Origin: Alphaproteobacteria bacterium
GTDB lineage: Bacteria; Myxococcota_A; UBA796; GCA-2862545
Length of the DNA: 64,000 bases
Reading direction: 5' to 3'
NCBI GenBank assembly: GCA_020632925.1
Contig: JACKER010000007.1
Span: forward strand, 52,910 to 116,909
The position numbers and the translations under genes are program-made. The notes under the pieces were generated by a model that was given only the letters and a program-made list of their open reading frames with translations, searched no databases and was not told the origin of the DNA. Shown in pieces: positions 1-62,816 of the stretch. Each line of letters starts with the position of its first letter. Positions within the stretch are counted from its first letter, which is position 1.

Positions 1-1
1 G

Positions 2-3000
2 TCGCCGACGGGCCGCTGCCGGTCGTTCTCCGCCGACGCCGACGGGTACGTGCGCGGCGAGGGCGCCGTCGTGCTGGTGCTCGAGCCGATGTCCCGCGCG
101 CGGCGGCTGGGGCACCGCGTGTGGGCGGTGGTGGCGGGCACGGCGGTGGGCCACGACGGACGCTCTGGCGGGCTCACGGTGCCGAGCGCGCGGGCACAGG
201 AGGAGGTGCAGCGGGCCGCGCTGGCGGACGCGGGCCTCGATCCCGGCGACGTCGACGTCCTCGAGGCCCACGGGACGGGCACGCCGCTCGGTGACCCGAT
301 CGAGCTCGGCGCGGTGTCGCGCGTGCACGCGGGCCGCTCGCGTCCGCTCCTCGTGAGCGCGCTGAAGACGCGCATCGGGCACGTCGAGGCCGCCGCCGGC
401 CTGGCGGGGACGTTGGCCCAGGTCCTGGCGATGGCGCGCGGCACCGTGCCGCCGCTGCTGCACTGCGACGCCCCGAACCCGGCGCTGCCGGAGGGGCCTT
501 GGGAGCTCGTGCGGGCGGCGGTGCCCTGGCCGGAGCGCGAAGGGCCCCGCGTGGCGGCGGTGAGCTCCTTCGGTCTGTCCGGGACCGGCGCTCACGTCGT
601 GCTGCTCTCGGGCGACCCCGAGCCCGAGGTGCCAGCGGACGGTGCCGCGGCGCTGCTCGTGGCCTCGTCGCACGACGAGGAGGCGCTGGCAGTCGACCTC
701 GCGGCCCTGGCCGACGCTGGGCCGGCGGTGGCCTCCGCGCTCGCCAGGGCCCGCTCGAGCCGCGCGATCCGCGTCGCGGCCGTGGGCGGCCTGGCGCAGC
801 TGCGGGCTGCGGTCCCACGACGGGCCACGCCGGGGCTCCGGGTGGGGTTCGTGTGCGCCGGACAGGGGCTGGCGCTTCCACCCCTCGCGTCGTCGCTGGA
901 CGAGCCCACCTTCCGCGCGGCGTTCGAGGAGGTGGTGGGGGCTCACCCAGACCTGCGCCAGGTCCTGCTCGCGGGTGGAGAGCTGGACGACGCCGAGGTG
1001 GCGCAGCCGGCCCTGGTGGCGCTGGCGCTCGTGTTCGCCCGCTGGTGGCGGTCGGTCGGGGTCGAGCCCGTCGTGGTGGCGGGTCACTCGCTGGGCGAGC
1101 TCGCGGCGGCCGCGGTCGCGGGGTCGCTGTCCGCCGAGGACGCCCTTCGCTTCGCGACGGAGCGGGGGTCGGCGTGCGCACGCCTCGCGGGCGAGGGCGC
1201 GATGGTTGCGCTGCGGGCCACGCCGGACGAGGTGTCGGCGGCGCTGGCCGGTCGGTCCGACGTGGCGCTGGCGGCGGTCAACGGTCCGGGCCGGGTGGTC
1301 CTCGCGGGGCCACGCGCAGCGCTCGAGGCGCTGGTGGCCTCCCTCGGAGACCGCGGCCCCGCCTGGCTGCGCACCACGCACGCCTTCCACTCGGCCTCGA
1401 TGGATCCGGTCGTTCCCGAGGTCCGGCAGCTGGCCTCCGCCCTGGCGCACGCGTCGCCGGCGATCCCGCTGCTCACGGGGCTGACCGGGCTCACGGTGAC
1501 CCCCGACGCCGAGCACTGGGCGCGCCACCTGCGCGAGCCCGTGCGGTTCGATCGCGTGCTGCACGGGCTGGCGGAGCGCTGCGACCTCGTGATCGAGCTC
1601 GGTCCGGGCATCGGCTTCGCCGCGCTCCTGGCGGCGCCCGGGCTCGAGGTGGTGGCGGCGGACCTCCGGGAGGGCAGGACGGGCCTCCTGGCGGCGGCGG
1701 GGCAGGCGTGGACCCACGGCGCTTCCGTCGTGCCCGCGCGGCTCGTCCCCCGGGTCGCTGGCCCGCCGTTGCCTGCGCCGCACCGCCGCCGTCGTCGCGC
1801 GTGGCTGCCGCTGCCCGGCGAGCGCGCTGCGGCCCCCACCTGGGACGTGCGGTGGGAGGCGGCGAGCGCCGGTGCCGCTCCGGTGGACGCGGAGGTCGTG
1901 GTCGCGACCACGCTGGCGGACGCGCTGGATCGCGTGCGCGCCGCGGTGCCGGGGAGGGCGCTCGTGTTTCGCACGTCCGGTGCGTTCACGGGCACCGACC
2001 CGGTGGCCGCGGGTCTCGATGGCTTGCTGGCCTCGGCCCGCATGGAGCACCCCGAGCTCGATCTGCGCGTGCTGGACGACGTGCCGGACGGGGAGCTCGA
2101 CCGCGCGCTGGCCGTCGGCGAGCCCCGGGTGGGGTGGACCGACGGCCCGCGGGTGCCGCGCCTCGTCCCCGCCCCGCCCGGACCGCCGCTGGACCTCCGA
2201 CCCGGCAGCACCTGGTGGGTGACGGGCGGAGCGGGCGCCGTCGGTCGGCGGATCGCGGAGGCGTTGCGCGCGCGCGGTGTCCGCGTGGTGGCGATCGGTC
2301 GGTCCGAATCCAGGCACATCGATGACGAATACGTAGCGATCGACGTTCGTGATCGCGACGCGATGTGCGCGCTGGTGGAGCGGGCGCGGCCCGACGGCGT
2401 GGTCCATGCGGCGGGCGTCGCGCGGGGCCAGCTCGTGCGTCAGGAGAGCGAGGAGGGGCTCGCGGAGCCATGGGGTCCCAAGGTCGACGGCGCGCGGATC
2501 CTGGCGGAGCTGCTCCCTCCAGACGTGCCGCTGGTCGTGATTGGCTCGGCCATCGGGTGGCTGGGCCGCGTGGGGCAGGCGGCCTACGGGGCGGCCAACG
2601 CCGGGGCCGAGGCGGTGGTGCGTGCACGGCGGGCCGCGGGCGGGCGCGCCTGGTCACTGCGCTACGGCCCCTGGTCGGTCGGCATGGCGGAGGACGCGGA
2701 CTGGGCCGCGGACGGCGTGAGCCCGCTGACGGTGGAGCAGGGGGTCGCCGCCCTCGACCGCGCCGCGGACGGCATGCCCATGGCCGTCGACTGGGCCGTC
2801 TTCGCCCGGCGGCACCCCGCGCCCTGGATCCCCGCGGCGCCGACGGCCCCTGCCGCGAGTGAGCTCATGGGCTGGCCCGAGCGCGAGCGTCGGCCCGAGC
2901 TGCTGCGGCGGGTGCTGGCGCTGGCGGCCTCGGTGCTGCCGCGCCCGCCCGGCCCCGACACGGGCTGGTTCGACGCCGGCGCGGACTCGATCGCGGCCGT

Positions 3001-6000
3001 CGAGCTGGCGCGGCGCTTCGGCGAGGTCGTGGGGCGCGCCCTGCCCGCGACGCTGCTCTTCGATCACGGCACGCCGTCGGCCGTCGTCGACGCGCTCCTG
3101 CCACCACCCGCGTCCGTCCCGGTCGCGTCGACCCGCGTCGACCGCGAGCCCATCGCGATCGTGGGCATGGCGCTGCGCTTCCCGGGCGCGGCCTCGCCCG
3201 ACGAGCTCTGGGAGCTGCTGTCCGAACGGCGGATCTCCGTGCGCCGCGTGCCTCCCGAGCGCTGGGACGCGGACGCCTGGTACGCGCCCCACCCGTCCCC
3301 GCCGGGCCGCGCCTACGCCACCGACGGCGGGTTCCTGGACGGGCTCGACGCCTTCGATCCGGACGCCTTCGGCATGTCCGCTCGCGAGGCCGAGCGCCTC
3401 GATCCGCAGCAGCGGCTGCTGCTCGAGCTCTCTCGCGAGGCGCTGGAGCGCGCTGGCCACCTGGTGGCCGATCTGCGGGGCAGCCGCACGGGCGCCTGGT
3501 TCGGCATCGCCGACCGGGGCTGGGCGCACCGCTTCCGGGCCACGGGCGCGCCGCTCTACCCCGACGCCTGGGCGGGGACGGGGACCGAGCCGGCCTTCGC
3601 CGCCGGGCGGGTGGCGCACGCGCTGGGGCTGCGCGGTCCGGCGGTCGCGCTCGACACGACGTGCTCGTCCACGCTGGTGGCGGTGCACCTGGCGGCGCGC
3701 GCGCTCCGGGACGGCGACTGCGACCGGGCGCTCGCGGGCGGCGTCGCGCTGCAGTGGCTCCCCGACGACACCGCCTACCTGTGCTCGCTGGGCGCGCTGT
3801 CCCCGACGGGCCGCTGCCACGTGTTCGACGCGAAGGCCGACGGGTACGTCCGTTCCGAGGGCTGCGGGGTGTTCGTGCTCCGGCGGCTCTCGGACGCGGA
3901 GCGCGACGGCGACGAGATCCTCGGCGTACTCCACGGGTCGGCCGTCGACCACGACGGCGCGTCCGGCGGGCTCACGGTGCCGAGCGGCGAGGCGCAGCGG
4001 CTCGTGTTGCGCCAGGCGCTCGCGGACGCTGGCGCCGAGCCGTCGCGCGTGGCGTACCTCGAGGCGCACGGGACGGGCACGCGGCTGGGGGACCCGATCG
4101 AGGTCTCGGCCGCGCGCGAGGTCTATGGCGACCGCGACGAGCCGCTGCTGATCGGCGCGATCAAGGCCAACCTGGGACACGCGGAGCTGGCGGCGGGGGC
4201 GGCCTCGCTGGCGAAGGCGCTGCTCGCGCTGGGGCGAGGCGTGGTTCCTCCGCAGCCGGTCCCGGTGGAGCCGAGCCCCGAGCTCGACCTGCGCGGGCTG
4301 CGCATCGTCCAACAGGCCACCCCGCTCGGCCCCGACGCGCTCGTGGCGGTCTCGGGCTTCGGCCTGTCGGGCACCAACGCGCACCTCGTGCTCGGACCAC
4401 CCCCGCGGGTGGAGCGCGCCGTACCGACGCCCTCCGCCCGTCCGGTGACGCTGCTGGCGGTCTCGGGCTCGACGCCGGCGGCCGTGGGTGCCCGGGTGGA
4501 CCAGCTGCTGGCGCTCGGTGCCCCGCTGCCCGACGTGGCGGCCGCCGCGCACCGGGTGGCGCCGGGTCCGTGGCGCGCGGCGGTGGTCGTCGCCGACGCG
4601 GGCGAGCGCCCCGCCGTGGTGCCGCACCGGCCGGTGGGTGCCCCGCGCGTGGGCTTCCTGTACTCGGGGCAAGGGACGCAGCACGCCGGCATGGGGCTCG
4701 CGCTGGACGCCGCGTCTCCCACCTTCCGCAGCGCGCTCGACGCCTGCGCCGCGGTCCTCGACCCGCTCCTCGGACGGCCGCTCCGCGAGCTGCTCGCGGA
4801 CGACGAGGCGCTCGGTCGCACGGCCGTGACCCAGCCCGCGCTGTTCGCCGTGCTGTGGGCGAAGACGGTGTTGCTGCGCTCGCTGGGCCTGGAGCCGACG
4901 GTCGTGGCGGGGCACTCCCTGGGGGAGCTCGTGGCCGCCACGGTGGCGGGGAGCTGGGCGCTGGAGGACGCGCTGCGGCTGGTGGCGGCCCGCGGCCGGT
5001 GGATGGAGGAGCGCGCGCTCCCGGGGCTGATGGCCGCCGTCCAGCTGGCGAGAGAGGACGTGAGCCCTGCACTCACGTCGGGTTGCGAGGTCGCGGCGGT
5101 CAACGCGACGGACGAGGTCGTGATCGCCGGACCCCAGGACGCCGTGCGCGCCACACTGGCGGCGCTGCCGCCGGGGACGCGGGTGACGGAGCTGCCGGTG
5201 GGGCGCCCGTTCCACTCGTCCTGCGTGGACCCGATGCTCGCGGGATGGGAGGCGGAGGTGGCGGCGCTCCCGTCGCGAGCGCCCGAGCTGCGCTGGGTGA
5301 GCCTGCTCGACGGGGAGGAGGTCGCCGAGGCGCCGCCGGCCTCCTTCTGGCGTCGGCACGCCCGGGAGCCCGTGCGCGTCGATCTCGCCGCCAGGCACCT
5401 CGCGGGGCTCGGGGTGGATCTGTGGCTCGATCTCGGCCCGCACCCGGCGCTGCTGGGACTGCTCCGACGGGCGGAGGTCGAGGGTCGCTTCGCGGCGACG
5501 GAGCGTCGTGGTGGCGAGGCCTGGCGCGAGCTCGCCAGCGCCGTGGGCGCCGCCTGGGAGGTCGGGCTGCCGGTGGATCTGCAGGCCTGGGAGGAGGGGC
5601 GGACGACGACGCGGATCCCGCTGCCACCGACCCCGCTCGATCGGCGCCGCTGCTGGCCGGAGGAGCCCCTCCCGCGCGCGCCGTCGTACCGCGTGGCGCT
5701 GGTGCCCGCGCCCAACGCGGAGCCGGTGGCGGTCGAGCGCGTCGCGCCCGAGGGCGCCTCGCTGACGGACCGTGTGCTGTCGCTGGCGCGCGTCACGGGG
5801 GGCGCCGTGGTCGTGGACGGCGCGGACGAGGAGGCCTGGGCGCTGGTGGCGGCAGCTCGTTGCCTGCGCTTCGAGCGGCCCGCGGCACCGCCGCGCGTGT
5901 GGTGGGGTGCCCCCGTCGAGGGCGCCGTCCCGAGCGAGCCCGAGGTCTGGTGGCGAGATGGGCGGCCGCACGTCCCCCGCTTGCAGGCGTTCCACCCGGT

Positions 6001-7150
6001 GGCCGCCGAGCCGTCGTTCTCGGGGACCTGGTGGGTCACGGGCGGGCTCGGTGGGGTCGGGCTGCACGTCGCCGGCTGGCTGTGTGAGCGCGGTGCAGGG
6101 CGCCTGGTGCTGGTCTCGCGCCACCCGCGCGACCCCGAGGACCCGCGGCTGGCCCGGTGGCGGGCGCGGGGCGTGGAGGTCGTGGTGGTCGCTGCCGACG
6201 TCGCCGACGGGGCGGCCCTGCGACCCTGGCTCGAGCGCTTCCCGCCGGACGGCGTGGTGCACGCGGCCGGCGCCACGCGGCCTGCGGACCTCGACGAGCT
6301 CGATCGGAGCACGGTGGACGAGGTCCTGCGCGCGAAGGTGGAGGGGGCGCGCGTGCTCGACGCGTGGCTCGGGGACCGCCCGCTCCAGGCGTTCGTGCTG
6401 GTCTCCTCGGTGGCGTCGGTGTGGGGGAGCCGTCGCCTGGTGCCCTACGCGGCGGCGAACGGCTGGCTCGACGGGCTCGCCGAGCGCCGGCACGCGCGCG
6501 GGCGGACGGCGGTGTCCGTGTCCTTCGGGCCGTGGGGCGGCGGCGGCATGGTGGACGCCGGTCGCGCCGAGGAGCTAGCGCGCGCGGGCCTCGCGCTGCT
6601 CGAGCCGGGGGACGCCCTCCGCGCGCTGGGGGACGTGATCGCGTCCGGGGTGCCGCGCGCCGTGATCGCTCGGGTGGACCTGCCGCGCCTGGTGGGGGCG
6701 TTGTCGACGGCGGGCCCGCAGCCGCTGTTCGACGACCTGCTGCCGCCGCCCCCGACGGTGGCCTCCGCTCCGACGCCTGCCAGACCCGCCGACCCGCTGG
6801 TGGTCATCACGGCCCTGGCCCGCCAGGTCCTGCGTCTCGCGCCGGACCGTCCGCTGCCCCCGGACCTCCCGTTGGCCGATCTCGGGTTCGACTCGCTGAT
6901 GGCGACGGAGCTCAAGGCGGGCCTGCTCGCCGAGGGGGTCGATGTGCCGCTCGGCAGGCTGCTCGCCGGGCCCTCGGTCGAGGAGCTCGCGCGGATGGCC
7001 GGCGCGCGTACGAGCGTTCCCGAGCCCCCGGCCGCGGCGGAGGCGGTGGAGGCCGGGGAGCCCGCGCCGGACCGGCTCCTCTGGTGGACGCACCTCGCCG
7101 CCGTGGTCGTCGGCATCGCCCTGGCGAGCGGCGTCTGGGCGCTGCTGTAG
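2..7150 (+). CDS. Modular type I polyketide synthase, 3' portion; 5' end lies outside the window. Domain order: partial KS, AT, KR, ACP, KS, AT, KR, ACP, then a C-terminal hydrophobic segment.
   Basis: The reading frame is open from nt 2 and starts inside the KS motif SPTGRCRSFSADADGYVRGEG. KS1 has EAHGTGTPLGDPIE. AT1 has GHSLGE at about nt 1085 and a HAFH motif at about nt 1381. KR1 Rossmann motif TWWVTGGAGAVG is at about nt 2209. ACP1 GADSIAAVEL is at about nt 2985. KS2 has DTTCSST (active-site Cys, about nt 3660), HGTGT and NLGH. AT2 has GHSLGE at about nt 4915 and an unusual GRPFHSS motif. KR2 TWWVTGGLGGVG is at about nt 6030. ACP2 LGFDSLMATEL is at about nt 6885. The protein ends LWWTHLAAVVVGIALASGVWALL followed by a stop, with no TE domain. 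Confidence 0.93.
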   Translation, partial: SPTGRCRSFSADADGYVRGEGAVVLVLEPMSRARRLGHRVWAVVAGTAVGHDGRSGGLTVPSARAQEEVQRAALADAGLDPGDVDVLEAHGTGTPLGDPIELGAVSRVHAGRSRPLLVSALKTRIGHVEAAAGLAGTLAQVLAMARGTVPPLLHCDAPNPALPEGPWELVRAAVPWPEREGPRVAAVSSFGLSGTGAHVVLLSGDPEPEVPADGAAALLVASSHDEEALAVDLAALADAGPAVASALARARSSRAIRVAAVGGLAQLRAAVPRRATPGLRVGFVCAGQGLALPPLASSLDEPTFRAAFEEVVGAHPDLRQVLLAGGELDDAEVAQPALVALALVFARWWRSVGVEPVVVAGHSLGELAAAAVAGSLSAEDALRFATERGSACARLAGEGAMVALRATPDEVSAALAGRSDVALAAVNGPGRVVLAGPRAALEALVASLGDRGPAWLRTTHAFHSASMDPVVPEVRQLASALAHASPAIPLLTGLTGLTVTPDAEHWARHLREPVRFDRVLHGLAERCDLVIELGPGIGFAALLAAPGLEVVAADLREGRTGLLAAAGQAWTHGASVVPARLVPRVAGPPLPAPHRRRRRAWLPLPGERAAAPTWDVRWEAASAGAAPVDAEVVVATTLADALDRVRAAVPGRALVFRTSGAFTGTDPVAAGLDGLLASARMEHPELDLRVLDDVPDGELDRALAVGEPRVGWTDGPRVPRLVPAPPGPPLDLRPGSTWWVTGGAGAVGRRIAEALRARGVRVVAIGRSESRHIDDEYVAIDVRDRDAMCALVERARPDGVVHAAGVARGQLVRQESEEGLAEPWGPKVDGARILAELLPPDVPLVVIGSAIGWLGRVGQAAYGAANAGAEAVVRARRAAGGRAWSLRYGPWSVGMAEDADWAADGVSPLTVEQGVAALDRAADGMPMAVDWAVFARRHPAPWIPAAPTAPAASELMGWPERERRPELLRRVLALAASVLPRPPGPDTGWFDAGADSIAAVELARRFGEVVGRALPATLLFDHGTPSAVVDALLPPPASVPVASTRVDREPIAIVGMALRFPGAASPDELWELLSERRISVRRVPPERWDADAWYAPHPSPPGRAYATDGGFLDGLDAFDPDAFGMSAREAERLDPQQRLLLELSREALERAGHLVADLRGSRTGAWFGIADRGWAHRFRATGAPLYPDAWAGTGTEPAFAAGRVAHALGLRGPAVALDTTCSSTLVAVHLAARALRDGDCDRALAGGVALQWLPDDTAYLCSLGALSPTGRCHVFDAKADGYVRSEGCGVFVLRRLSDAERDGDEILGVLHGSAVDHDGASGGLTVPSGEAQRLVLRQALADAGAEPSRVAYLEAHGTGTRLGDPIEVSAAREVYGDRDEPLLIGAIKANLGHAELAAGAASLAKALLALGRGVVPPQPVPVEPSPELDLRGLRIVQQATPLGPDALVAVSGFGLSGTNAHLVLGPPPRVERAVPTPSARPVTLLAVSGSTPAAVGARVDQLLALGAPLPDVAAAAHRVAPGPWRAAVVVADAGERPAVVPHRPVGAPRVGFLYSGQGTQHAGMGLALDAASPTFRSALDACAAVLDPLLGRPLRELLADDEALGRTAVTQPALFAVLWAKTVLLRSLGLEPTVVAGHSLGELVAATVAGSWALEDALRLVAARGRWMEERALPGLMAAVQLAREDVSPALTSGCEVAAVNATDEVVIAGPQDAVRATLAALPPGTRVTELPVGRPFHSSCVDPMLAGWEAEVAALPSRAPELRWVSLLDGEEVAEAPPASFWRRHAREPVRVDLAARHLAGLGVDLWLDLGPHPALLGLLRRAEVEGRFAATERRGGEAWRELASAVGAAWEVGLPVDLQAWEEGRTTTRIPLPPTPLDRRRCWPEEPLPRAPSYRVALVPAPNAEPVAVERVAPEGASLTDRVLSLARVTGGAVVVDGADEEAWALVAAARCLRFERPAAPPRVWWGAPVEGAVPSEPEVWWRDGRPHVPRLQAFHPVAAEPSFSGTWWVTGGLGGVGLHVAGWLCERGAGRLVLVSRHPRDPEDPRLARWRARGVEVVVVAADVADGAALRPWLERFPPDGVVHAAGATRPADLDELDRSTVDEVLRAKVEGARVLDAWLGDRPLQAFVLVSSVASVWGSRRLVPYAAANGWLDGLAERRHARGRTAVSVSFGPWGGGGMVDAGRAEELARAGLALLEPGDALRALGDVIASGVPRAVIARVDLPRLVGALSTAGPQPLFDDLLPPPPTVASAPTPARPADPLVVITALARQVLRLAPDRPLPPDLPLADLGFDSLMATELKAGLLAEGVDVPLGRLLAGPSVEELARMAGARTSVPEPPAAAEAVEAGEPAPDRLLWWTHLAAVVVGIALASGVWALL

Positions 7151-7166
7151 CGGCCGCTCTCGCGAG

Positions 7167-8702
7167 CTACTGCATCACGAACGGGTACGTGATCGCGGTG
7201 CCCTTGCTGGCCGCCGGGAAGCGGATGCTCGCGATCGCACGGCCGAGGCAGGCCTCGAGCTCGGTCCCCCGGTACTGCTGCTGCAGCAGCGTCACGCCGG
7301 TCGCCTGGCCGCCGGGGGAGATCGTGAACTTCGCGTCCACGCGCGGCGGGAGCGCTCCGGCCTTGAACAACGGCACGAAGCACTTCTTGACCTCGATGTT
7401 GTTCGACACCATCACGTGCACCGCCTCGATCGGCACTGTCTCCATCTGGGCCGGAGCGGGCGCGGGCGGAGGGGCCATCGGGGCCGGAGCCACCGGCATC
7501 GGCGCGGGCGCGATGGGCTGTGGCGTGGGCTGCGGGCGGGAGGGCTGGGGCTTGGGGCGCGTCGGCTGCGGGCGCGGGCGCGACGGCTCGGGGACCGCCG
7601 GCTCCGGCTCGACGGGGGGCGGCTCGACGACGGGCTGGGTGTCCGGGGTCGGGGTGTTCGACACCGACGCCAGCGTGTTGGTCCCGCCGGTCGGGACGGC
7701 CATGCCCGCCAGCGCGCCCTGATCGGAGAAGTTGATCGCCTCGACCGCGCGCTCCACGCCCCACTTCGTGCCCACGAGCAGCGAGGCCATGACGACCGCC
7801 ACCATGAACCCGAGGACCACGGAGAGCAGCGTCTGGGCGGGCTTGCGGCCGCGTCCGCCGGTGATGAGCACCAGGAACGAGAGCACCCCGCCGCCGAAGG
7901 TCATGGCGAGGCCGAACCACATCACGAGCGCGTGGTTCCAGATCGAGAGCACCGACAGCAGCACGCTGCCCATCAGCGCCATCGACGTGCCAAGCAGGGC
8001 CCAGTTCAGGTCCCCCGCGGGATCGTGCGCCATCGGCGCGTACGCCGCGACGGGCGGCGGCATCGGGGTCGCCGTGCGCGGGTACGCCGAGCCGGGGGTC
8101 TGACGCTGCGGCGGGGGGGCCGGCGTGCGCCGCTGGGGCGGAGGCGCGGGCGTCCGCCGGACCGGCGGGTTCGAGGGGGGCGCGTGGTAGGACGCGGGCG
8201 CTGGCGTCTGCGACCGGCGCGGCGGCGGCAGCGAGGCCGGTCCGCCTTGCGGCGGGCGCGCGGGCGGGCGCTCCTTGTGCGTCACCTGCTCGGACGGCGG
8301 CACGGACGAGCGGATGTGCGTCACCACGTCGGGCTCGTACTCCGGCTGCCCGTAGGGGGTCGCGTACGGATCGTGCGCCTGCAGCGTGTCGCCCGACCGC
8401 GGCGCCATCATCGGCGTCTCCATGTGGACGTCGTCGGAGACCACCGGTCCGCTCGGCGCGCGGCCGGGCAACGTCGACTCGTGCTCGTCGTCGCGGTGCG
8501 AGGCCATGCGCGGGGGCGCGCCGACCGGCGTGGGCGGCACGGCCGTGACCAGCGTGCGCTCCTCCGGATCGGCGTTCGGCTTGGGACGGGGGATGAGCAT
8601 GCGATGGCCGCAGTTGCGGCACGTCGCCTTGTTCACCGCCTTGGTGAGCTTGTCGTCGGGGACCTTGTACACCGCACGACAGTTGTCGCAGACGACCTTC
8701 AT
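7167..8702 (-). CDS. Zinc-ribbon (MJ0042-type) protein with a Pro-rich linker, transmembrane segments and a C-terminal AgmX/PglI or TonB-C-like domain.
   Basis: The N-terminus MKVVCDNCRAVYKVPDDKL...CRNCGH has a double CxxC motif. It is followed by a long P/Q/R-rich low-complexity region, then hydrophobic helices (ALLGTSMALMGSVLLSVL...), then a C-terminal domain ending ...ASIRFPAASKGTAITYPFVMQ. GC3 is high in this frame. The gene is convergent with the PKS. Confidence 0.6.
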   Translation of the reverse strand: MKVVCDNCRAVYKVPDDKLTKAVNKATCRNCGHRMLIPRPKPNADPEERTLVTAVPPTPVGAPPRMASHRDDEHESTLPGRAPSGPVVSDDVHMETPMMAPRSGDTLQAHDPYATPYGQPEYEPDVVTHIRSSVPPSEQVTHKERPPARPPQGGPASLPPPRRSQTPAPASYHAPPSNPPVRRTPAPPPQRRTPAPPPQRQTPGSAYPRTATPMPPPVAAYAPMAHDPAGDLNWALLGTSMALMGSVLLSVLSIWNHALVMWFGLAMTFGGGVLSFLVLITGGRGRKPAQTLLSVVLGFMVAVVMASLLVGTKWGVERAVEAINFSDQGALAGMAVPTGGTNTLASVSNTPTPDTQPVVEPPPVEPEPAVPEPSRPRPQPTRPKPQPSRPQPTPQPIAPAPMPVAPAPMAPPPAPAPAQMETVPIEAVHVMVSNNIEVKKCFVPLFKAGALPPRVDAKFTISPGGQATGVTLLQQQYRGTELEACLGRAIASIRFPAASKGTAITYPFVMQ

Positions 8703-8799
8703 CCGCTGCTCCCCAGAAGGTCCCCCATCTACCGGTGCCGGCCCCGTCTCGCAACGGCCCTTCGCGGGCTCTTGACGGGTGCGGTCGCTGGCGAGGCCG

Positions 8800-9436
8800 T
8801 CAGAGGAAGCGCTCGATCGCCCGGTGCAGGTCGAGTCGATCGACGAGGTCCGACAGATAATCGGCGTTCTCGCTGTCCCAGATCACGAGCGGCGAGTGGT
8901 TCCAGCCGCCGATCCACTCCTCGTACAGGCCGTTGAGGCGCCGGAGGTACGTGACCGGGATGTCCTGCTCGCTCGGACGCCCGCGCTGGCGGATGCGGGA
9001 GCGGATGGCCCGCACCGAGCACCGCAGGTGGATCATGAGATCCGGCGGACGGAGGCTCTGCTTCATCGCCTCGTAGAGCTCGAGGTACGTCGAGAAGTCG
9101 CGCTTCGAGATCTTCCGGCTGCGCGCGAGGTAGGTCGCGAAGATCTCGGCGTCCTCGTAGATCGTGCGATCCATGACGAACGTGCCGGGCGCAGCCTCGA
9201 GATCCTGGTGCAACCGGAACTTCCGCGCCAGGAAGAACACCTGGCTGTGGAAGGCCCAGCGGTCCATGTCGGCGTAGAAGTCGTCGAGGTAGGGGTTGTC
9301 GCCGAACGGCTCGTAGACCGGGACGATGCCGTACCGCTCGGTCAGGTACCGGACCAGGGTCGTCTTGCCGACGCCGATGTTCCCCGACACCGCGACGAAC
9401 CTGTCGGCCACCGGACCTCCCCGCGCCCCGTTCACA
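8800..9436 (-). CDS. Deoxynucleoside kinase (dAK/dGK/dCK family).
   Basis: P-loop FVAVSGNIGVGKTT, then a typical dNK core (YEPFGDNPYLDDFY...DRTIYEDAEIFA...) to the stop at 8800. The listed 481-aa ORF is an over-extension. GTG at 9436 is the likely start, so start confidence is moderate. Confidence 0.75.
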
Positions 9437-10287: not shown

Positions 10288-10905
10288 TCAGGCCTCCTGC
10301 ACGAAGTCCAGCAGCGGACGCCACTCCTCGCGCCAGGACACGAGCTTGTGCGAGGGGTCGTCGAACAGGGAGCTGCCGACCTCCGCGAGGTTCGCGTACG
10401 TCTGGGTGTCGCGCAGGCGGGCGAGCGTCTGGACGGGCAGGGTCTCGAGGAAGTCCTCCAGCCGCTTCGACGCGCGGGTGCGCGCCCGGTACCGGTTGGC
10501 GACGACGCCGATCGGGCGCTTGTTCTTGCGGATCACCTTGAACTCGCTCACGAGGTCGACGAACCGCTGGGTGCCCGCCTCGTCGAAGACGGAGGCCTGG
10601 ACCGGGACCACGATCGCGTCGGCGGCCTTCACGAGCTCCTCGAGGTCCTTCTTCCGCAGGGCAGCGGGCACGTCGACCACGATCCGGTCGTACCCCTTGG
10701 GCTTCTCCCACCCCTTCGACAGGTCCAGCCCGTGGATCGTCGGGAGAGACGCCGGGCGCCGCTCCAGCCACGCGAGCGCGGACTGCTGCTTGTCGAGATC
10801 GGCGAGCGCGGTCCGGTCCCCGAGGTGAGCGAACCACGCGGCCAGGTGCGTGGACACCGTCGTCTTGCCCACGCCTCCCTTCACGTTGGCCACCATCACC
10901 ACCAT
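10288..10905 (-). CDS. ParA/MinD-family P-loop ATPase; an orphan small ParA.
   Basis: Deviant Walker A motif VANVKGGVGKTT. The 205-aa length and overall architecture are typical of small ParA-like ATPases. Confidence 0.8.
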   Translation of the reverse strand: MVVMVANVKGGVGKTTVSTHLAAWFAHLGDRTALADLDKQQSALAWLERRPASLPTIHGLDLSKGWEKPKGYDRIVVDVPAALRKKDLEELVKAADAIVVPVQASVFDEAGTQRFVDLVSEFKVIRKNKRPIGVVANRYRARTRASKRLEDFLETLPVQTLARLRDTQTYANLAEVGSSLFDDPSHKLVSWREEWRPLLDFVQEA

Positions 10906-18374: not shown

Positions 18375-19156
18375 ACGCGCTGGAGGGCTGGGAGCGGCGC
18401 GACTTCGCGCACGAGGGGGCGTCCCGCGAGGTCTACGTGCGCGGGGAGGGCCCCGCGGTGGTCGTGATGCACGAGGTCCCCAACCTCCACCCGGGCGTGA
18501 TCCGCTTCGGGCAGCGGCTGGTGGACGAGGGCTTCCGCGTGTGGATGCCGTCGCTGATGGGCGTACCGGGGCGCCCGGTCTCGGTGCGCACGTCCCTGCG
18601 CTCGATCGGGCGGGCCTGCGTCTCGCGCGAGTTCGCCACCTGGGCGCTCGGGCGGACGAGCCCGATCACCGTCTGGCTGCGGGCGCTCGCGCGGCACGCG
18701 GGGGAAGGGCGGCCGGTGGGCGCCATCGGGATGTGCCTGACCGGTGGGTTCGCGCTGGCGATGGCGGTCGACGACGTGCTGGCCGCCCCCGTGCTCTCGC
18801 AACCGTCCGTCCCGTTCGCGCTCAGCCCGTGGCACGCACGTGACCTGGGCGTCAGTGACGAGGACCTGGGGACGTTGCGGCGCCGCTGCGCGGACGAAGG
18901 GCTGTGCGTGCTCGGGCTGCGGTTCTCCATGGACGCGATGGCGCCCGGCGCTCGGTTCCGTCGCTTGCGAGAGGAGCTGGGGGACGCGTTCCTCGCGGTC
19001 GAGATCGATTCGTCGCTCGGCAACCCGCACGGCATCCCGCCCTGGCACCACTCGGTGCTCGCCCACCACTACGTCGATCGGCCGGACCACCCGACGCGCC
19101 AGGCCGAGGACCGCGTCGTGGCCTTCTTCCGCGAGCGCCTCACGGCAGATCGCTGA
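18371..19156 (+). CDS. Dienelactone hydrolase family protein (Cys nucleophile).
   Basis: VVVMHEVPNLHPGVIRFGQRLVDEGFRVWMPSL and nucleophile motif GMCLTGGFAL. GTG start overlaps the upstream stop (GTGA). Confidence 0.8.
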   Translation: MNALEGWERRDFAHEGASREVYVRGEGPAVVVMHEVPNLHPGVIRFGQRLVDEGFRVWMPSLMGVPGRPVSVRTSLRSIGRACVSREFATWALGRTSPITVWLRALARHAGEGRPVGAIGMCLTGGFALAMAVDDVLAAPVLSQPSVPFALSPWHARDLGVSDEDLGTLRRRCADEGLCVLGLRFSMDAMAPGARFRRLREELGDAFLAVEIDSSLGNPHGIPPWHHSVLAHHYVDRPDHPTRQAEDRVVAFFRERLTADR

Positions 19157-20705
19157 CCGCTCCGGCCTCCCAGCCGACGGGCAGGCGCTGCGAGCGGTAG
19201 CTGTTCCAGCCGTCGGGCACCTCGTCCATGTCCGACGACAGCTCCACGTCCCACAGCAGCTCGCCGGTCTCGGGCACGAACTCGACGAGGCGGATCAGGT
19301 GCCGCCCCAGGCCGTAGTCCGCCAGGTAGCGTCCGTTCATCGCGATGACGCCGGCGAAGTTCCCGAGCACGTCGCCGTTGGGCAGGTGGTCGGCGTCCCC
19401 CATGTAGTCCCCGAACAGCCGGACCCCGGGGATCTCGAACTCCCACGCCTGTTCCACGGTCATCGCCTGCTCGTCGATGCGGTACTCGACCACCCGCGAC
19501 CAGGTCTCCAGCGCGCCCAAATCGTCCTCGCCGGTCCACGGGCTCGCCTGCCGGTTGCCGTTGTCGAACATCATGATCCGGTCGCCCCCGAACCACTCCG
19601 GCGCGTGCTGCTTGTACGGCCAGCGGAAGGGCTGCCCGACCGGCTGCAGGCGCAGGCTCTCAGACGCGGTCGGCCAGTTCGCGGGGTTCGCGAGGATCCA
19701 CCGGACGGTCCCGTCGAGGTCGAGCCCCGCGAGCGCGTCCTGCGCGCGCGAGGAGATCACGATGGCGTCGTTCTCCGGCGACCAGGCCACGCCGTTGCCG
19801 TGCACCCAGTCCTTGGGGTTGCCGACGAGCGAGGTGTACCCGATGCGTTCGTACGGGATGGCGGTCGAGTACGGGATCTCGCGGATCACCGTGCCGTCCT
19901 GGGCCAGGAGCACGATCTCGTCGTCGCGCACGGTCGCGTCCGCGCGCACCAGCGGGTCGTCGTAGCTGGCGGGGAAGTCCTGCACCGTGACGTTCTGCTT
20001 CGACATCGCGAGCATCGTCCCGTCCGGGAGGCGCTGCACGTCGTGGTGGAAGGTCGGGAGCGCGACGGGGATGGTCGTCCCCGAACCGCCGCCGGGCACC
20101 CACTGGCGCTGGATCCGCCCGAGCCAGTCGAGCTCGATGAGCGCCCCCTCCTGCGCGTTGCCGAGGAGCATCCCGTCGCTGCGCAGCTGCAGCTCGAGCA
20201 TCCGCGGGTCGCGGGCCCACCACCACACGATCTCGCCCTCGGGGCTCAGGACGATCTGCCAGGCCCCGACGCCGCCCGCGACCACGCCGACCAGGGTGTC
20301 GCCCGGCTCCATCGCGTCGGCGTCGAGCTGGTGAACCGTCACGTCGGGGAACTTCGGCGGCAGGCTCGCGGTGTGGAAGGTCAGCGTCCGTTCGGCGGTC
20401 GCTCCCTCGGCGCGCAACGTCAGGTGGACCTCGACGTCCCGGTCCGCGCGCATCCGCAGCAGCGGCAGCTCGTGCTCGGTGGCGGCGGGCAGCTCCACCG
20501 TCGTCGCGAGGTCGCCGTCGGACCAGGTGACCGTCGCCTCGCTCGGCACCTCGGTGGCGAAGGACAGCAGGCGGGCCAGCGGGACGGCGGGGTTCACGAG
20601 GGTGGCTGTCGGCTCGGCCGTCAACACCAGCTCCTCCGGCGGCGGAGGGGGATCGGTTCCCGCCGGCGGTCGCTCGCACCCGAGCACGGCCAGCGCCGCG
20701 ATCAC
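19140..20705 (-). CDS. Arylsulfotransferase (ASST)-family beta-propeller protein, lipoprotein/secreted.
   Basis: ASST-like blocks are present (FHHD..., WVHGNGVAWSP..., FDNGNRQ...). GTG start at 20705 gives VIAALAVLGC, a signal peptide plus lipobox. The listed 636-aa ORF has a spurious N-terminal extension that overlaps the amidotransferase gene. Confidence 0.65.
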   Translation of the reverse strand: MIAALAVLGCERPPAGTDPPPPPEELVLTAEPTATLVNPAVPLARLLSFATEVPSEATVTWSDGDLATTVELPAATEHELPLLRMRADRDVEVHLTLRAEGATAERTLTFHTASLPPKFPDVTVHQLDADAMEPGDTLVGVVAGGVGAWQIVLSPEGEIVWWWARDPRMLELQLRSDGMLLGNAQEGALIELDWLGRIQRQWVPGGGSGTTIPVALPTFHHDVQRLPDGTMLAMSKQNVTVQDFPASYDDPLVRADATVRDDEIVLLAQDGTVIREIPYSTAIPYERIGYTSLVGNPKDWVHGNGVAWSPENDAIVISSRAQDALAGLDLDGTVRWILANPANWPTASESLRLQPVGQPFRWPYKQHAPEWFGGDRIMMFDNGNRQASPWTGEDDLGALETWSRVVEYRIDEQAMTVEQAWEFEIPGVRLFGDYMGDADHLPNGDVLGNFAGVIAMNGRYLADYGLGRHLIRLVEFVPETGELLWDVELSSDMDEVPDGWNSYRSQRLPVGWEAGAVSDLP

Positions 20706-21538
20706 GCCGGCACCGCGGGGAACCGGTGGAAGCGCATGAAGGGGTCCACCGCCACGACCTCTCCCTCGGCCAGCCGCTCCCACGCGTTCTCCCCGAGGAG
20801 GGGTTCGCTCGAGACCAGCAGGTGGTTCACGTGTTGGCGGTGCGTCACCGGCGCCTCGCAGGTGGGTCCGAGGAAGGTGCAGGTCTCCCGCTCGGGGCAG
20901 CGCTGCTTCCACGTGGAGTAGCAGAGGTCCTTCCCGCCGTGGTGGGCGACCAGCAGCTCCCCGTCCGTCACCATCAACGTCAGCAGGCTGCGTCGCTCCG
21001 GGCTGTCCGCCAGCTCGCGCACGATCGCGACCGTCTCGCGCAGCGCGCACACCACGTCGTCGAGCGGCGTGCCGCGACGGTGCAGGTCGACGCGCTCAGC
21101 GAGACGCCCCAGGAACAGGTGGAACACGACCTCGCTGTCCGTGTCGCCCATGAGGAAGCGGCGGAACTTGGGGGCGACCTGCTCGACGAGCGCGTCCCGC
21201 ACCTCGGGGAAGGCGGGGATGTCGCCGTTGTGGGCCATCACCCACCGACCGTGCTGGAAGGGGTGGCAGTTGAGCGTGGACAACGCACCCTGCGTCGCCC
21301 GGCGGACGTGCGCGACGACGGTGTCGCTCGTGAGCAGGCCGCTGACGCGCTCGAAGAGGTGGTCGCTGCCCGCCGTGCCCGTCGACTTCAGGATGTGCGG
21401 CGATCCGGCGACGTAGTAGGCGACCCCCCAGCCGTCGGGGTGCTCGCGGGACTGGACGGCGAGCGCGTTGTCGGCGCTGCGGAGCGAGCGGTGGACCTGG
21501 CTCTGCAGGACGGAGCGGAAACCGAACAGGCGACACAT
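20702..21538 (-). CDS. Class II (Ntn-type) glutamine amidotransferase, YafJ-like.
   Basis: Starts MCRLFGF, giving the Cys2 nucleophile. Other motifs: DGWGVAYY, HVRRAT and NCHPF. ATG at 21538. Confidence 0.8.
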   Translation of the reverse strand: MCRLFGFRSVLQSQVHRSLRSADNALAVQSREHPDGWGVAYYVAGSPHILKSTGTAGSDHLFERVSGLLTSDTVVAHVRRATQGALSTLNCHPFQHGRWVMAHNGDIPAFPEVRDALVEQVAPKFRRFLMGDTDSEVVFHLFLGRLAERVDLHRRGTPLDDVVCALRETVAIVRELADSPERRSLLTLMVTDGELLVAHHGGKDLCYSTWKQRCPERETCTFLGPTCEAPVTHRQHVNHLLVSSEPLLGENAWERLAEGEVVAVDPFMRFHRFPAVPA

Positions 21539-33757: not shown

Positions 33758-34444
33758 TCAGACGACCTGCGCCGATCCCAGCCAGTCCGCGTAGTTCGTG
33801 CGCGCCGCCGCGTTCGCCGCCACCGCCGTCAGTGCGGGGTTGCGGAGCACGGCGACCGGCTCGAGCACCTGCTGATCGAGGAGCAGCGGGACCCGGTGGT
33901 GGGTGGCCTCGAGGCGGGGGGCGGCGTCCCCGAGGGCCGCGCGGAGGAACTCGTCCACCAGCTCGGTGCAGTACAGCTCGTCGTTGTCCGGCTGGAAGCC
34001 GTAGTCGTAGGGCCGGCCGATGAGCGAGATCACGCGCTCGAGGCCGACGGAGAGCCGGTCGTCGGGCAGGTCGGGGTGCCGCACGACCACCCAGGTGTCC
34101 CGCTCGTAGCGGTCGAGGAAGCGGGCGAGGGGCTCGCGGATCACGCCGACGTCGCGGTCCAGGGCGCCGAACGTCCGCTTGACCGCGTCCCACATGGCGC
34201 CGAACCAGCCGCGCATGGTCTTCTCGGTGGCCATCGCGTGCACCAGCGCGCCCTCGCCCACGTGGACGCCGACGTGCGTGAGCCGGCCGTTGTTCCCGAG
34301 GAGCACGAAGTCGCCGGCCCGCAGCACGCGGAGCATGTCGTCGGTCGACGCCGCCGTGAGGCGCGGCAGCCCGTCGACGTCGTCCTTGTGGCCGCCCACC
34401 GTCCACGCGATCTTGAGCAGCACGCGCAGCAGCCAGGTCCTCAC
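33758..34444 (-). CDS. YiiX/YaeF-like permuted papain-fold (NlpC/P60 superfamily) protein.
   Basis: GDFVLLGNNGRLTHVGVHVGEGALVHA...ELYCTELVDEF. ATGA overlap with the patatin gene stop. Confidence 0.55.
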   Translation of the reverse strand: MRTWLLRVLLKIAWTVGGHKDDVDGLPRLTAASTDDMLRVLRAGDFVLLGNNGRLTHVGVHVGEGALVHAMATEKTMRGWFGAMWDAVKRTFGALDRDVGVIREPLARFLDRYERDTWVVVRHPDLPDDRLSVGLERVISLIGRPYDYGFQPDNDELYCTELVDEFLRAALGDAAPRLEATHHRVPLLLDQQVLEPVAVLRNPALTAVAANAAARTNYADWLGSAQVV

Positions 34445-36425: not shown

Positions 36426-36432
36426 CGCGACC

Positions 36433-42582: not shown

Positions 42583-46155
<3,573 letters not shown>

Positions 46156-46163
46156 GGGTGCTC

Positions 46164-47060: not shown

Positions 47061-47245
47061 GGCCGGAGCACGTAACCCTCGTGCGTGGCGTCGGTCAGGG
47101 AAGAAGCGTGGTGTGGCGGAGCCGGGGTCGGTCGGATTCGTGGCCGGTGCTCCCTCGACGTTCAGCTCGCTTCGATTCTGTGACTTTCGACCGGAGAAGA
47201 CCATTCCGGTCGAGCGCGGGGCCACGCGTCCCGCAAGGTGTACAC

Positions 47246-52599: not shown

Positions 52600-52612
52600 G
52601 ATCTCCTCCGGT

Positions 52613-57468: not shown

Positions 57469-57484
57469 GGGAGTCCTCTGGAAA

Positions 57485-62813: not shown

Positions 62814-62816
62814 GGA

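What the first reader, a model, noticed from the sequence alone, without database searches (positions are those of the whole stretch)
2..7150. PKS terminal gene with reductive loops limited to KR, no thioesterase, an atypical AT2 motif and a C-terminal hydrophobic tail.
Both modules are KS-AT-KR-ACP, which predicts beta-hydroxy units. AT1 carries HAFH, the motif typically correlated with malonyl-CoA. AT2 carries RPFH in the same position, which is neither HAFH nor YASH, so its extender unit may be non-standard. The protein ends after ACP2 with LWWTHLAAVVVGIALASGVWALL. This is a possible membrane anchor or docking element rather than a TE, which implies either release by a separate enzyme or a membrane-tethered assembly line.
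Basis: partly seen in the sequence, partly recalled or inferred. Interest (0 to 1): 0.5.

Follow-up and report, generated by a model that had tools for sequence, protein, structure and literature searches.

The report
Membrane-anchored three-module polyketide synthase
The gene encodes the last two-thirds of a single giant three-module polyketide synthase that ends in a conserved membrane-spanning helix instead of a release domain, and it belongs to an undescribed family from uncultivated bacteria that probably makes a polyhydroxy lipid at the inner face of the cell membrane.

Summary
Window 2-7150 (+) is a 5'-open ORF reading [KS C-terminal part]-AT-KR-ACP-KS-AT-KR-ACP, with no DH, ER or TE. 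It ends in LLWWTHLAAVVVGIALASGVWALL*. A near-identical MAG contig shows the whole gene is 3,837 aa, (KS-AT-KR-ACP)x3. It is therefore a single-gene trimodular PKS, not the last gene of a multi-gene line.

The tail is not a chance product of high GC. About 45 cluster representatives, nearly all 3-4.7 kaa trimodular PKSs from MAGs and metagenomes, end the same way. The motif is L-x-W-[TS]-H-[LVA]-A-A-x-[IV]-V-G-x-A-x-A, about 66 residues after the ACP3 serine. The tail is conserved like a catalytic domain (58% identity against 28-35% for linkers). AlphaFold gives an ACP, a disordered linker and one helix. A tail-anchor transmembrane helix fits best; a docking domain does not.

RPFH in the last AT is a clade variant of HAFH. 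F200, H201, R117 and GHSLG are kept, orthologues carry HAFH or CPFH, and whole-domain profiles favour the malonyl type by 115 bits. A non-standard extender is not supported.

Four relatives have a discrete thioesterase gene directly downstream; this clade has none nearby. No literature describing such PKSs was found.

The parts
2..604 (+). C-terminal part of KS of module 2 (HGTGT at nt 269-283). The gene starts about 4.4 kb upstream of the window.
   Evidence: The full gene is 3,837 aa in L081, so the window starts near residue 1456.
833..1738 (+). AT of module 2. GHSLG at 1082-1096 and HAFH at 1379-1390. R117 is kept. The GQG and Q63 motifs are slightly degenerate (AGQGLA, VAQPAL).
   Evidence: It scores +78 bits for the malonyl-type over the methylmalonyl-type profile.
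2204..2704 (+). KR of module 2. TGGAGAVG at 2222-2245; catalytic Tyr in YGAAN at 2585-2599.
2909..3097 (+). ACP of module 2 (GADSI at 2978-2992).
3137..4411 (+). KS of module 3. Active-site Cys in TTCSS at 3656-3670; HGTGT at 4067-4081.
4637..5551 (+). AT of module 3. GHSLG at 4910-4924; RPFH at 5204-5215 (FabD positions 198-201).
   Evidence: It scores +115 bits for the malonyl-type profile. RPFH is shared with L001, P0015, P0125, P0136 and P0160. L004 has CPFH, P0133 has SAFH, and the remaining orthologues have HAFH.
5972..6601 (+). KR of module 3. TGGLGGVG at 6038-6061 and YAAAN at 6446-6460. There is a Trp eight residues before the Tyr and no LDD motif, so it is A-type by sequence rule.
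   Evidence: The A-type rule is from my own knowledge (Keatinge-Clay fingerprints).
6767..7006 (+). ACP of module 3 (GFDSL at 6884-6898).
   Evidence: AlphaFold gives a four-helix bundle with pLDDT above 90.
7007..7072 (+). Pro/Ala/Glu-rich flexible linker between ACP3 and the tail.
   Evidence: pLDDT is below 50 with no secondary structure. Identity across the family is 35%.
7073..7147 (+). C-terminal tail-anchor helix DRLLWWTHLAAVVVGIALASGVWALL. It carries the conserved W-[TS]-H and the A-x-x-x-G-x-x-x-A small-residue face. The stop codon is at 7148-7150.
7167..8702 (-). Convergent Zn_ribbon_4 (MJ0042-type) gene. It is not part of the PKS and marks its 3' boundary. It is syntenic with the orthologous locus L166.

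Best explanation
Window 2-7150 holds residues ~1456-3837 of one self-contained, cis-AT, type I modular PKS of three KS-AT-KR-ACP modules. It starts directly with an active KS (no loading module) and ends in a single C-terminal transmembrane helix (no thioesterase). The helix acts as a tail anchor: the ~3,800 cytoplasmic residues are followed by a ~20-residue flexible linker and a ~24-residue helix that inserts into the cytoplasmic membrane, so the last carrier domain is held within a few nanometres of the inner leaflet.

Predicted chemistry (inferred): an acyl primer, probably a fatty acyl thioester loaded straight onto KS1, is extended three times with malonyl-CoA. Each beta-keto group is reduced, giving a 3,5,7-trihydroxyacyl chain on ACP3 at the membrane. 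Off-loading occurs in trans. In four relatives a discrete alpha/beta-hydrolase thioesterase encoded right after the PKS is the obvious candidate. In this clade the releasing partner is not encoded nearby and is unknown.

The invariant W-[TS]-H at the cytoplasmic end of the helix and the A-x-x-x-G-x-x-x-A face suggest the helix also packs specifically, either with its twin in the homodimeric PKS or with a membrane partner.

Shown: domain order, catalytic motifs, family membership, conservation of the tail, malonyl-type AT. Inferred: membrane insertion, primer identity, collinear use of the three modules, product, release route.
For: Architecture and motifs.

Whole gene: 3,837 aa beginning with KS in the source MAG contig, which is 99.4% identical to the window over 18.7 kb.

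Family size and shape: a profile search with ACP3+tail against 1.84 billion representatives gave 16 hits at E<1e-30. About 45 of the best 150 end in the hydrophobic tail. The full-length ones are 3.1-4.7 kaa and trimodular.

Tail motif in 34 family sequences: W 33/35, T/S 35/35, H 34/35 and G(+7) 31/35 (counts are out of the 35 pattern matches, one of which, P0224, is a false match). There are 18 uncharged residues after the His, then 0-6 more to the end. Ser(ACP)-to-His spacing is 55-76. H, A(+3) and G(+7) are invariant in a 9-sequence full-length alignment.

Conservation: source-vs-family identity of the tail is 58%, against KS ~60%, ACP3 56% and linkers 28-35%.

Structure: AlphaFold gives ACP, a disordered linker and a single helix at 106-129.

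Specificity of the feature: of 163 PKS loci fetched, only family members have an ACP followed by a hydrophobic C-terminus.

Single-gene status: no second PKS gene in 17 loci.

Release and loading partners in relatives: a discrete TE immediately downstream in L003, L084, L169 and L173. A FAAL-like AMP-binding+PP-binding gene overlaps the PKS start in the P0156 locus.

AT class: AT3 is malonyl-type, and F and H of the xxFH motif are invariant in AT3.
Against: No experiment or dedicated TM predictor was available, so membrane insertion rests on hydropathy, position and conservation. By the Hessa scale (values from memory) the segment is only marginally favourable: about -0.9 kcal/mol for the 18-mer and +1.2 with the His.

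The window clade has no TE, loader, transporter or acyltransferase nearby. Neighbours are not conserved across the family, so primer and release are guesses.

Several relatives have lost or inactivated the AT of module 1 or 2 (L001, L004, P0148, P0143, P0146, P0160, P0171). Simple one-module-one-extension collinearity is therefore not guaranteed.

A sister group has a Lys/Arg-rich extension after the hydrophobic segment (P0149, P0161, P0164, P0181). That sits awkwardly with a simple N-in/C-out tail anchor.

The first ~509 residues of the source protein and the DNA upstream of it were not readable.
Confidence: 0.7

Rival explanations
1. The C-terminal helix is a soluble docking or dimerisation element (a PKS docking-domain analogue), not a membrane anchor.
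For: PKS subunits often end in short helical docking domains after the ACP. PKS modules are homodimers, and the tail has a small-xxx-small face that could mediate helix-helix contact.
Against: There is no partner PKS gene in any of 17 loci. The tail has 18-23 consecutive uncharged residues and a Kyte-Doolittle mean of 1.8-2.6 across the family. The non-family PKS C-termini in the same search show the usual acidic docking tails (such as DDELFxLLDxELG) with means below 1. Nothing follows the helix, which is typical of tail anchors.
Confidence: 0.07
2. AT of the last module (RPFH) selects a non-malonyl, unusual extender unit.
For: RPFH is rare: 3 of 418 AT domains collected here, all in this family. 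No paper mentioning the motif was found. Positions 198-199 line the active site.
Against: F200, H201, R117, Q11, Q63 and GHSLG are retained. Orthologous ATs at the same position have HAFH (L002, L003, P0130, P0131 and others), CPFH (L004) or SAFH (P0133). F and H are invariant in AT3 of 9 full-length members. Whole-domain profile scores favour the malonyl type by 115 bits, like the HAFH orthologues (+127 to +130), and hold-outs classified 30/30 correctly. E. coli FabD has Pro at 199 (VPSH).
Confidence: 0.1
3. The synthase is not used collinearly. One AT serves several carrier domains, or modules act iteratively or are skipped, so the chain does not receive exactly three hydroxy-C2 units.
For: Relatives lack a detectable AT in module 1 or 2, or have a dead one: L004 module 2 has GHGVA with R117 replaced by W, and L001, P0148, P0143, P0146, P0160 and P0171 lack at least one. 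Yet they keep all three KS and ACP domains. Module 3 is the best conserved (AT3 47% vs 37-40%; KR3 48% vs 39-41%). The window's module-2 AT has degenerate GQG and TQ motifs.
Against: In the window's own protein all three ATs keep Ser, His and Arg, and all KS, KR and ACP motifs are intact.
Confidence: 0.2
4. The hydrophobic C-terminus is a by-product of translating very GC-rich DNA, or a secretion/sorting signal (PEP-CTERM, MYXO-CTERM, GlyGly-CTERM), without a role in the PKS.
For: The gene is 78% GC, which favours Ala/Gly/Val/Leu codons. The second-longest uncharged run in the protein is 17 aa, so length alone is not remarkable.
Against: The residue-level motif is conserved in 34 sequences whose PKS bodies are only 40-53% identical. 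NCBIfam sorting-signal models do not match. There is no Cys, PEP or GG motif next to the helix, and mostly no basic cluster after it. Relatives start directly with a KS and have no signal peptide.
Confidence: 0.03

Closest known systems
Canonical cis-AT modular type I PKS modules (DEBS/EryA, CurL, PikA)
   Same: Same domain families, order and catalytic motifs. The best solved-structure matches are CurL KS-AT (E 5e-174) and DEBS modules (E ~1e-172). KS-AT-KR-ACP is the classic beta-hydroxy-forming module.
   Different: The whole line is one polypeptide with no loading module, no docking domains and no TE. It ends in a transmembrane helix and sits alone, without tailoring genes. The region between AT and KR is short (141-185 aa).
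Mycobacterial lipid PKSs (Mas, Pks2, PpsA-E, Pks13)
   Same: Type I PKSs that begin with a KS primed by long-chain acyl thioesters. They make envelope lipids and work at the membrane. NCBIfam lists Pks13 and Pks2 among the top whole-protein matches, below their cut-offs, and MAS is among the PDB hits. Coupling of PpsE to the MmpL7 transporter is known (my own knowledge).
   Different: Those enzymes are soluble or peripherally associated and reach the membrane through partner proteins. None is known to me to carry its own C-terminal TM helix. The scores here are far below the family cut-offs, so this is not a member of those equivalogs.
Tail-anchored membrane proteins (bacterial and eukaryotic)
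   Same: A large cytoplasmic N-terminal body, a single hydrophobic helix within the last ~30 residues, and 0-6 residues beyond it.
   Different: The cargo is a ~3,800-aa multienzyme. The helix has a family-specific conserved motif (W-[TS]-H, AxxxGxxxA) rather than generic hydrophobicity.
Carrier-protein hand-off to membrane acyltransferases (DltC-DltB MBOAT system)
   Same: A phosphopantetheinyl carrier domain delivers its thioester cargo at the cytoplasmic face of the membrane. MBOAT genes lie 5-7.5 kb from two distant family members.
   Different: No MBOAT lies near the window gene or its close relatives. This is an analogy only, from my own knowledge.

Membership tests
cis-AT modular type I PKS | KS with Cys-His-His triad | tested here: met
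   TTCSS, HGTGT and NLGH are present in KS3, and HGTGT and IGH in the visible part of KS2. Cys and both His are invariant in all three KS of 9 family members.
cis-AT modular type I PKS | An integrated AT in each module, with GHSxG Ser, His201 and Arg117 | tested here: met
   Both window ATs and the upstream AT1 (L081) have them. Some relatives fail this in module 1 or 2.
cis-AT modular type I PKS | KR with a Rossmann GxGxxG motif and Lys/Ser/Tyr/Asn; ACP with a DSL serine | tested here: met
TE-terminated PKS | A C-terminal alpha/beta-hydrolase thioesterase domain after the last ACP | tested here: not met
   No Pfam domain follows PP-binding and only 47 residues remain. No TE lies in other + frames downstream. 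tblastn with relatives' TE finds nothing in the 64-kb window.
Tail-anchored membrane protein | A single hydrophobic helix of about 18-25 residues within ~30 residues of the C-terminus, and no other TM segment | tested here: met
   The top-scoring 19-mer by Kyte-Doolittle (mean 2.09) spans aa 2364-2382. It is the only segment above 1.8 and has no charges. A helix is predicted at 106-129 of the last 130 aa. The same holds in 34 relatives.
Tail-anchored membrane protein | No N-terminal signal peptide; the N-terminal body is cytoplasmic | tested here: inconclusive
   The N-terminus of this protein is outside the window and outside L081. Orthologues start 2-35 residues before KS1, and the source gene's first Pfam hit is KS.
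Tail-anchored membrane protein | Demonstrated membrane insertion | not testable with these tools
   This needs fractionation, a reporter fusion or a dedicated predictor.
PKS C-terminal docking domain | An amphipathic, charged helical tail plus a cognate N-terminal docking partner on a downstream PKS subunit | tested here: not met
   The tail has no charged residue. The next gene is a convergent Zn-ribbon protein. No second PKS gene is present in 17 loci.
C-terminal sorting signals (PEP-CTERM, MYXO-CTERM, GlyGly-CTERM, LPXTG) | A signature motif immediately before the TM helix, a basic cluster after it, and an N-terminal signal peptide | tested here: not met
   No NCBIfam model matches the last 60 or 130 aa at E<=1, apart from PKS ACP models and an irrelevant HrpD5 hit at E 0.067. 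The sequence ends at the helix.
Non-malonyl (methylmalonyl or other substituted) AT | YASH or an equivalent motif with Ser/Gly at position 200, GHSQG, and the class-specific whole-domain signature | tested here: not met
   RPFH has Phe200, and the Ser motif is GHSLG. The malonyl-type profile wins by 115 bits. Classes were defined by motif, not by assay.

The most novel reading that the evidence does not exclude
The conserved W-[TS]-H / A-x-x-x-G-x-x-x-A helix is more than an anchor. It would be a dedicated hand-off element that docks the last carrier domain onto a membrane partner, or forms a TM dimer, so that a polyhydroxyacyl chain passes directly into the membrane or onto an envelope lipid. 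This would define a new class of membrane-integrated, TE-less assembly lines that build envelope polyol lipids in uncultivated Myxococcota-like bacteria.
Probability: 0.25. Interest if true: 0.8.

Novelty: new variant of a known kind. Interest (0 to 1): 0.6.

Why it matters
Modular PKSs are treated as soluble cytoplasmic machines. Where they act at membranes (mycobacterial lipids, the bacillaene megacomplex) the contact is made through other proteins. Here a whole three-module synthase carries its own conserved transmembrane tail in place of a release domain. The same design recurs in dozens of sequence clusters from uncultivated bacteria that public databases annotate only generically ('SDR family oxidoreductase', 'acyl transferase domain-containing protein').

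If the anchor is real, it gives a directly testable case of spatially coupled polyketide-lipid synthesis. It also gives a compact 25-residue tag that could be used to tether engineered PKSs, and a lead to an unknown class of polyhydroxy lipids. For genome mining, it means that 'no TE' at the end of a PKS gene should prompt a check for a hydrophobic C-terminus before assuming a missing gene.

Tried and rejected
1. Looking for a TE or further PKS in alternative + frames past the stop (ORFs 6157-7722 and 6942-8936): no Pfam hit.
2. Looking for a TE, loader or transporter elsewhere in the 64-kb window: none. The only candidate is a patatin/EF-hand protein 27 kb away.
3. The search for homologous proteins with the AT3-to-end segment returned only hits of 1,474 aa or shorter at 37-55% identity and no orthologue. 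It was useful only for P0015, which shares RPFH.
4. The genome-contig scan did not contain the source genome. The metagenome scan used generic KS patterns, and only 2 of its 80 loci were family members.
5. The upstream end of the source gene could not be reached. L081 stops 509 residues short, and the full protein cannot be looked up by exact sequence.
6. Conserved-neighbour analysis found no universal partner.
7. MBL-fold hydrolases near three loci were considered as release enzymes and dropped: L002 and L004 share one by synteny, and L138's is unrelated.
8. The sulfatase/arylsulfotransferase association (7 of 17 loci) was judged not distinguishable from chance.
9. Literature searches for tail-anchored, transmembrane or membrane-bound PKSs and for 'RPFH' found nothing relevant.
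10. A PDB search with the tail found nothing.
Full report
**What is in the window.** The window is ~72% GC, and the first 7 kb are 78% GC. Frame 2 is open from base 2 to a TAG at 7148-7150. Pfam reads the 2,382 residues as [KS, C-terminal part]-AT-KR-ACP-KS-AT-KR-ACP. There is no dehydratase, enoylreductase, methyltransferase or thioesterase.

All catalytic signatures are present:
- KS3: TTCSS, HGTGT and NLGH.
- Both ATs: GHSLG plus Arg117.
- Both KRs: TGGxGxxG plus Lys/Ser/Tyr/Asn.
- Both ACPs: DS(I/L).

The protein ends ...EPAPDRLLWWTHLAAVVVGIALASGVWALL*. The next gene, 7167-8702 (-), is a convergent MJ0042-type zinc-ribbon protein 16 bp away. The long + strand ORFs overlapping it have no domain hit. 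The observation therefore stands.

**The gene is a whole synthase, not a terminal subunit.** An exact look-up of the zinc-ribbon protein led to contig JACKEU010000024.1 of assembly GCA_020632835.1 (L081). It is 99.4% identical to the window over 18.7 kb. NCBI labels this MAG 'Alphaproteobacteria bacterium'.
- The PKS there is called as 3,837 aa, beginning with a KS. The extra 946 residues I could read add AT1-KR1-ACP1 and the start of KS2.
- The window therefore shows modules 2 and 3 of a (KS-AT-KR-ACP)x3 protein.
- In every relative whose flanks are visible, the PKS is the only PKS gene and starts 2-35 residues before KS1, with no loading module.

**The tail defines a family.** A genome scan found four MAG loci whose PKSs are 47-53% identical to the source PKS over the aligned residues (L001-L004, labelled Myxococcota, Deltaproteobacteria, an uncultured bacterium, and one 'Rhodobacterales'). 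All end in the same kind of tail:
- ...TLWWWTHLAALVVGLALASGVWALFR*
- ...HLVWTHLAAVIAGIALAAAVFGLL*
- ...VLVWTHLAALIVGIALASALWGIWSAQLRP*

Word-based and profile searches added metagenomic fragments and full-length proteins.
- A four-sequence ACP3+tail profile was searched against 1.84 billion cluster representatives. It gave 16 hits below 1e-30, and about 45 of the best 150 end in a hydrophobic C-terminus.
- The full-length members are 3.1-4.7 kaa and trimodular.
- Public names are generic, and all sources are MAGs or metagenomes.

**Anatomy of the tail.** In 34 family sequences the consensus is L-x-W-[TS]-H-[LVA]-A-A-x-[IV]-V-G-x-A-[LI]-A-[SA]-[AG]-V-W-x-L-L.
- Conservation counts are W 33/35, T/S 35/35, H 34/35 and G(+7) 31/35; they are out of the 35 pattern matches, one of which (P0224) is a false match.
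- After the His come 18 (15-23) uncharged residues, then 0-6 more.
- The His lies 55-76 (median 66) residues after the ACP serine.
- A(+3), G(+7) and A(+11) form a small-xxx-small face. H, A(+3) and G(+7) are invariant in a nine-protein full-length alignment.
- Identity of the source to ten relatives is 58% in the tail. That compares with ~60% in KS, 56% in ACP3, 37-48% in AT and KR, and 28-35% in linkers. The tail is under selection comparable to a catalytic domain.
- It contains the most hydrophobic 19-mer of the protein (Kyte-Doolittle 2.09, no charges), and its codons keep coding-frame GC3.
- AlphaFold on the last 130 residues gives a confident ACP bundle, a disordered 20-residue linker and one helix covering residues 106-129.
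- No Pfam, NCBIfam or PDB entry matches the tail.

**Interpretation of the tail.** A tail-anchor transmembrane helix fits all of this.
- A docking domain does not fit: there is no partner, the segment has no charges, and non-family PKS ends in the same search show the usual acidic docking tails.
- A secretion or sorting signal does not fit: there is no signature motif, no basic cluster and no signal peptide in relatives.
- A GC-driven accident is excluded by the conservation.
- The specific W-[TS]-H and glycine-zipper-like face argue for specific helix packing. The partner could be the twin helix of the PKS homodimer or a membrane protein. This last step is inference.

**The RPFH motif.** Among 418 AT domains collected here, RPFH occurs only in this family. 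No paper mentioning it was found. It is nevertheless a variant at positions 198-199 only.
- Phe200, His201, Arg117, Gln11, Gln63 and GHSLG are kept.
- Orthologous last-module ATs read RPFH (window, L001, P0015, P0125, P0136, P0160), CPFH (L004), SAFH (P0133) or plain HAFH (L002, L003, P0130, P0131, P0148, P0149, P0161 and others).
- Phe and His are invariant in AT3.
- E. coli FabD has Pro at 199 (VPSH).
- I built profiles from motif-defined malonyl-type (HAFH, non-Q) and methylmalonyl-type (YASH, GHSQG) ATs from the unrelated loci. These classified 30 of 30 hold-outs correctly. The window's AT3 scores +115 bits for the malonyl type, like its HAFH orthologues (+127 and +130). The module-2 AT scores +78.

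Malonyl-CoA is therefore the parsimonious prediction. The classes were defined by motif rather than by assay, and exotic extenders are not formally excluded.

**Surroundings and release.** Nothing in the remaining 57 kb is polyketide-related. It encodes a dNK-like kinase, ParA, Ser/Thr kinases, an arylsulfotransferase, a radical-SAM aminomutase, an AraC regulator, a patatin/EF-hand protein, thioredoxin-like proteins and respiratory genes.

Across 17 family loci there is no universal neighbour. Some informative cases exist:
- A discrete PF00975 thioesterase gene sits immediately downstream on the same strand in L003, L084, L169 and L173. These TEs are 44-52% identical to each other.
- An AMP-binding+PP-binding (FAAL-like) gene overlaps the start of the P0156 PKS, whose first module also carries DH and ER.
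- MBOAT genes lie 5-7.5 kb from two distant members.
- The window's closest full-length relative (P0125/P0274, locus L166) shares the PKS / zinc-ribbon / dNK synteny. It has only a divergent methyltransferase upstream.

For this clade, release in trans by an enzyme encoded elsewhere is the working assumption. Spontaneous delta-lactonisation of a 5-hydroxy thioester is a chemical alternative (my own reasoning).

**Mechanistic model and its limits.**
- Shown: architecture, intact motifs, malonyl-type ATs, family-wide tail.
- Inferred: the helix inserts in the cytoplasmic membrane. KS1 is primed by a (fatty) acyl thioester. Three malonyl extensions with ketoreduction give a 3,5,7-trihydroxyacyl-ACP3 at the membrane. 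Off-loading is in trans.
- KR3 looks A-type (Trp eight residues before Tyr, no LDD; rule from my own knowledge).
- Caveat: several relatives have lost or inactivated the AT of module 1 or 2 while keeping KS, KR and ACP, and module 3 is the best conserved. One AT may therefore serve several ACPs, and strict collinearity is uncertain.
- Caveat: a sister group has a basic extension after the hydrophobic segment.

**Comparison and novelty.** By sequence this is an ordinary cis-AT type I PKS; the best solved matches are CurL, DEBS and MAS. The unusual features are the single-gene, loader-less and TE-less design ending in a conserved transmembrane helix, and the existence of a sizeable unannotated family with that design. 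Five literature searches found no description of such PKSs. The library is incomplete, so prior description cannot be excluded. I rate it a new variant of a known kind, with interest 0.6.

Noticed in passing
L003:6721-7530, L084:22252-22986, L169:14894-15631, L173:19360-20097: A discrete type II thioesterase gene (PF00975) lies immediately after the tail-anchored PKS gene, on the same strand, in four relatives. The TEs are 44-52% identical to each other. It is absent from the window and from L001, L002, L004, L138, L164 and L166.
   Followed up: yes
L169:151-3272, L172:455-4703, L173:4574-9578 (all - strand, divergent from the PKS): Three family loci share a divergent upstream operon. It holds an unknown 660-910 aa protein (37-62% identical between loci), a Flp/Fap-like small protein with a Gly-rich tail, and, in L172 and L173, a sulfatase with a formylglycine-generating enzyme. 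L168 also has a Flp_Fap gene upstream.
   Followed up: partly
Locus of P0156 (no DNA held; gene table): A family member carries DH and ER in module 1. An AMP-binding+PP-binding (FAAL-like loader) gene overlaps its start codon, and an MBOAT gene lies 5 kb downstream. Another MBOAT lies 7.5 kb from P0161 (L168:29647-31065).
   Followed up: no
Family proteins L001, L004, P0143, P0146, P0148, P0160, P0171: The AT of module 1 or 2 is lost or inactive while KS, KR and ACP persist (L004 module 2: GHGVA, with Arg117 replaced by Trp). The last-module AT is kept in all but P0143. This suggests one AT can serve several carrier domains.
   Followed up: partly
P0149, P0161, P0164, P0181, P0207, P0256, P0271: A sister group of PKS C-termini has T-H, then ~22 hydrophobic residues, then a 15-25 residue polar extension ending in Arg/Lys. 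P0199 and P0251 have unrelated hydrophobic C-termini after other architectures (for example KS-AT-KR-ACPx3). Membrane-tethered PKS ends may be broader than this one family.
   Followed up: no
window 8803-9411 (-); L164:9294-9905; L166:26004-26615: A deoxynucleoside-kinase-like gene is syntenic with the PKS in three genomes. It is 83% identical between the window and L164, while the PKSs are only ~50% identical, and the PKS orientation relative to it differs. The PKS evolves much faster than its housekeeping neighbour.
   Followed up: partly
window 19140-21095 (-); L001:2098-3744 (-); sulfatases in L164, L168, L171, L172, L173: An arylsulfotransferase (ASST) or sulfatase gene lies within ~12 kb of the PKS in 7 of 17 loci. 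The window and L001 ASSTs are 29% identical. I could not distinguish this from chance; sulfation of a polyol product is conceivable.
   Followed up: no
window 1-8000 vs the rest: The PKS gene is 76-78% GC against 67-75% for the rest of the window.
   Followed up: no
window 7167-8702 (-), 10288-10905 (-): NCBI labels the source MAG proteins 'Alphaproteobacteria bacterium' (MCB9683460.1, MCB9698931.1). Gene content (MJ0042 zinc ribbons, many Ser/Thr kinases with STAND/TPR) and all close PKS relatives point to Myxococcota-like organisms, so the label may be wrong.
   Followed up: no
window 51241-52623 (-), 55990-57504 (-), 58898-63770 (-): A respiratory cluster: COX1, a multicopper-oxidase/cytochrome c fusion, and a TAT-signal molybdopterin oxidoreductase with NrfD and 4Fe-4S subunits. 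It resembles alternative complex III or polysulfide reductase.
   Followed up: no
window 34441-36432 (-); 42583-47094 (-): A patatin-like phospholipase fused to EF-hands. Separately, a 1,503-codon open frame combines DUF255/thioredoxin-like, AhpC/TSA-like and NHL-repeat regions and may be more than one gene.
   Followed up: no
L167:6504-7241; L170:22263-23486: Rhomboid intramembrane protease genes lie within 10 kb of two family PKSs. The tail, a single helix rich in small residues, would be a plausible rhomboid substrate. This is pure speculation.
   Followed up: no
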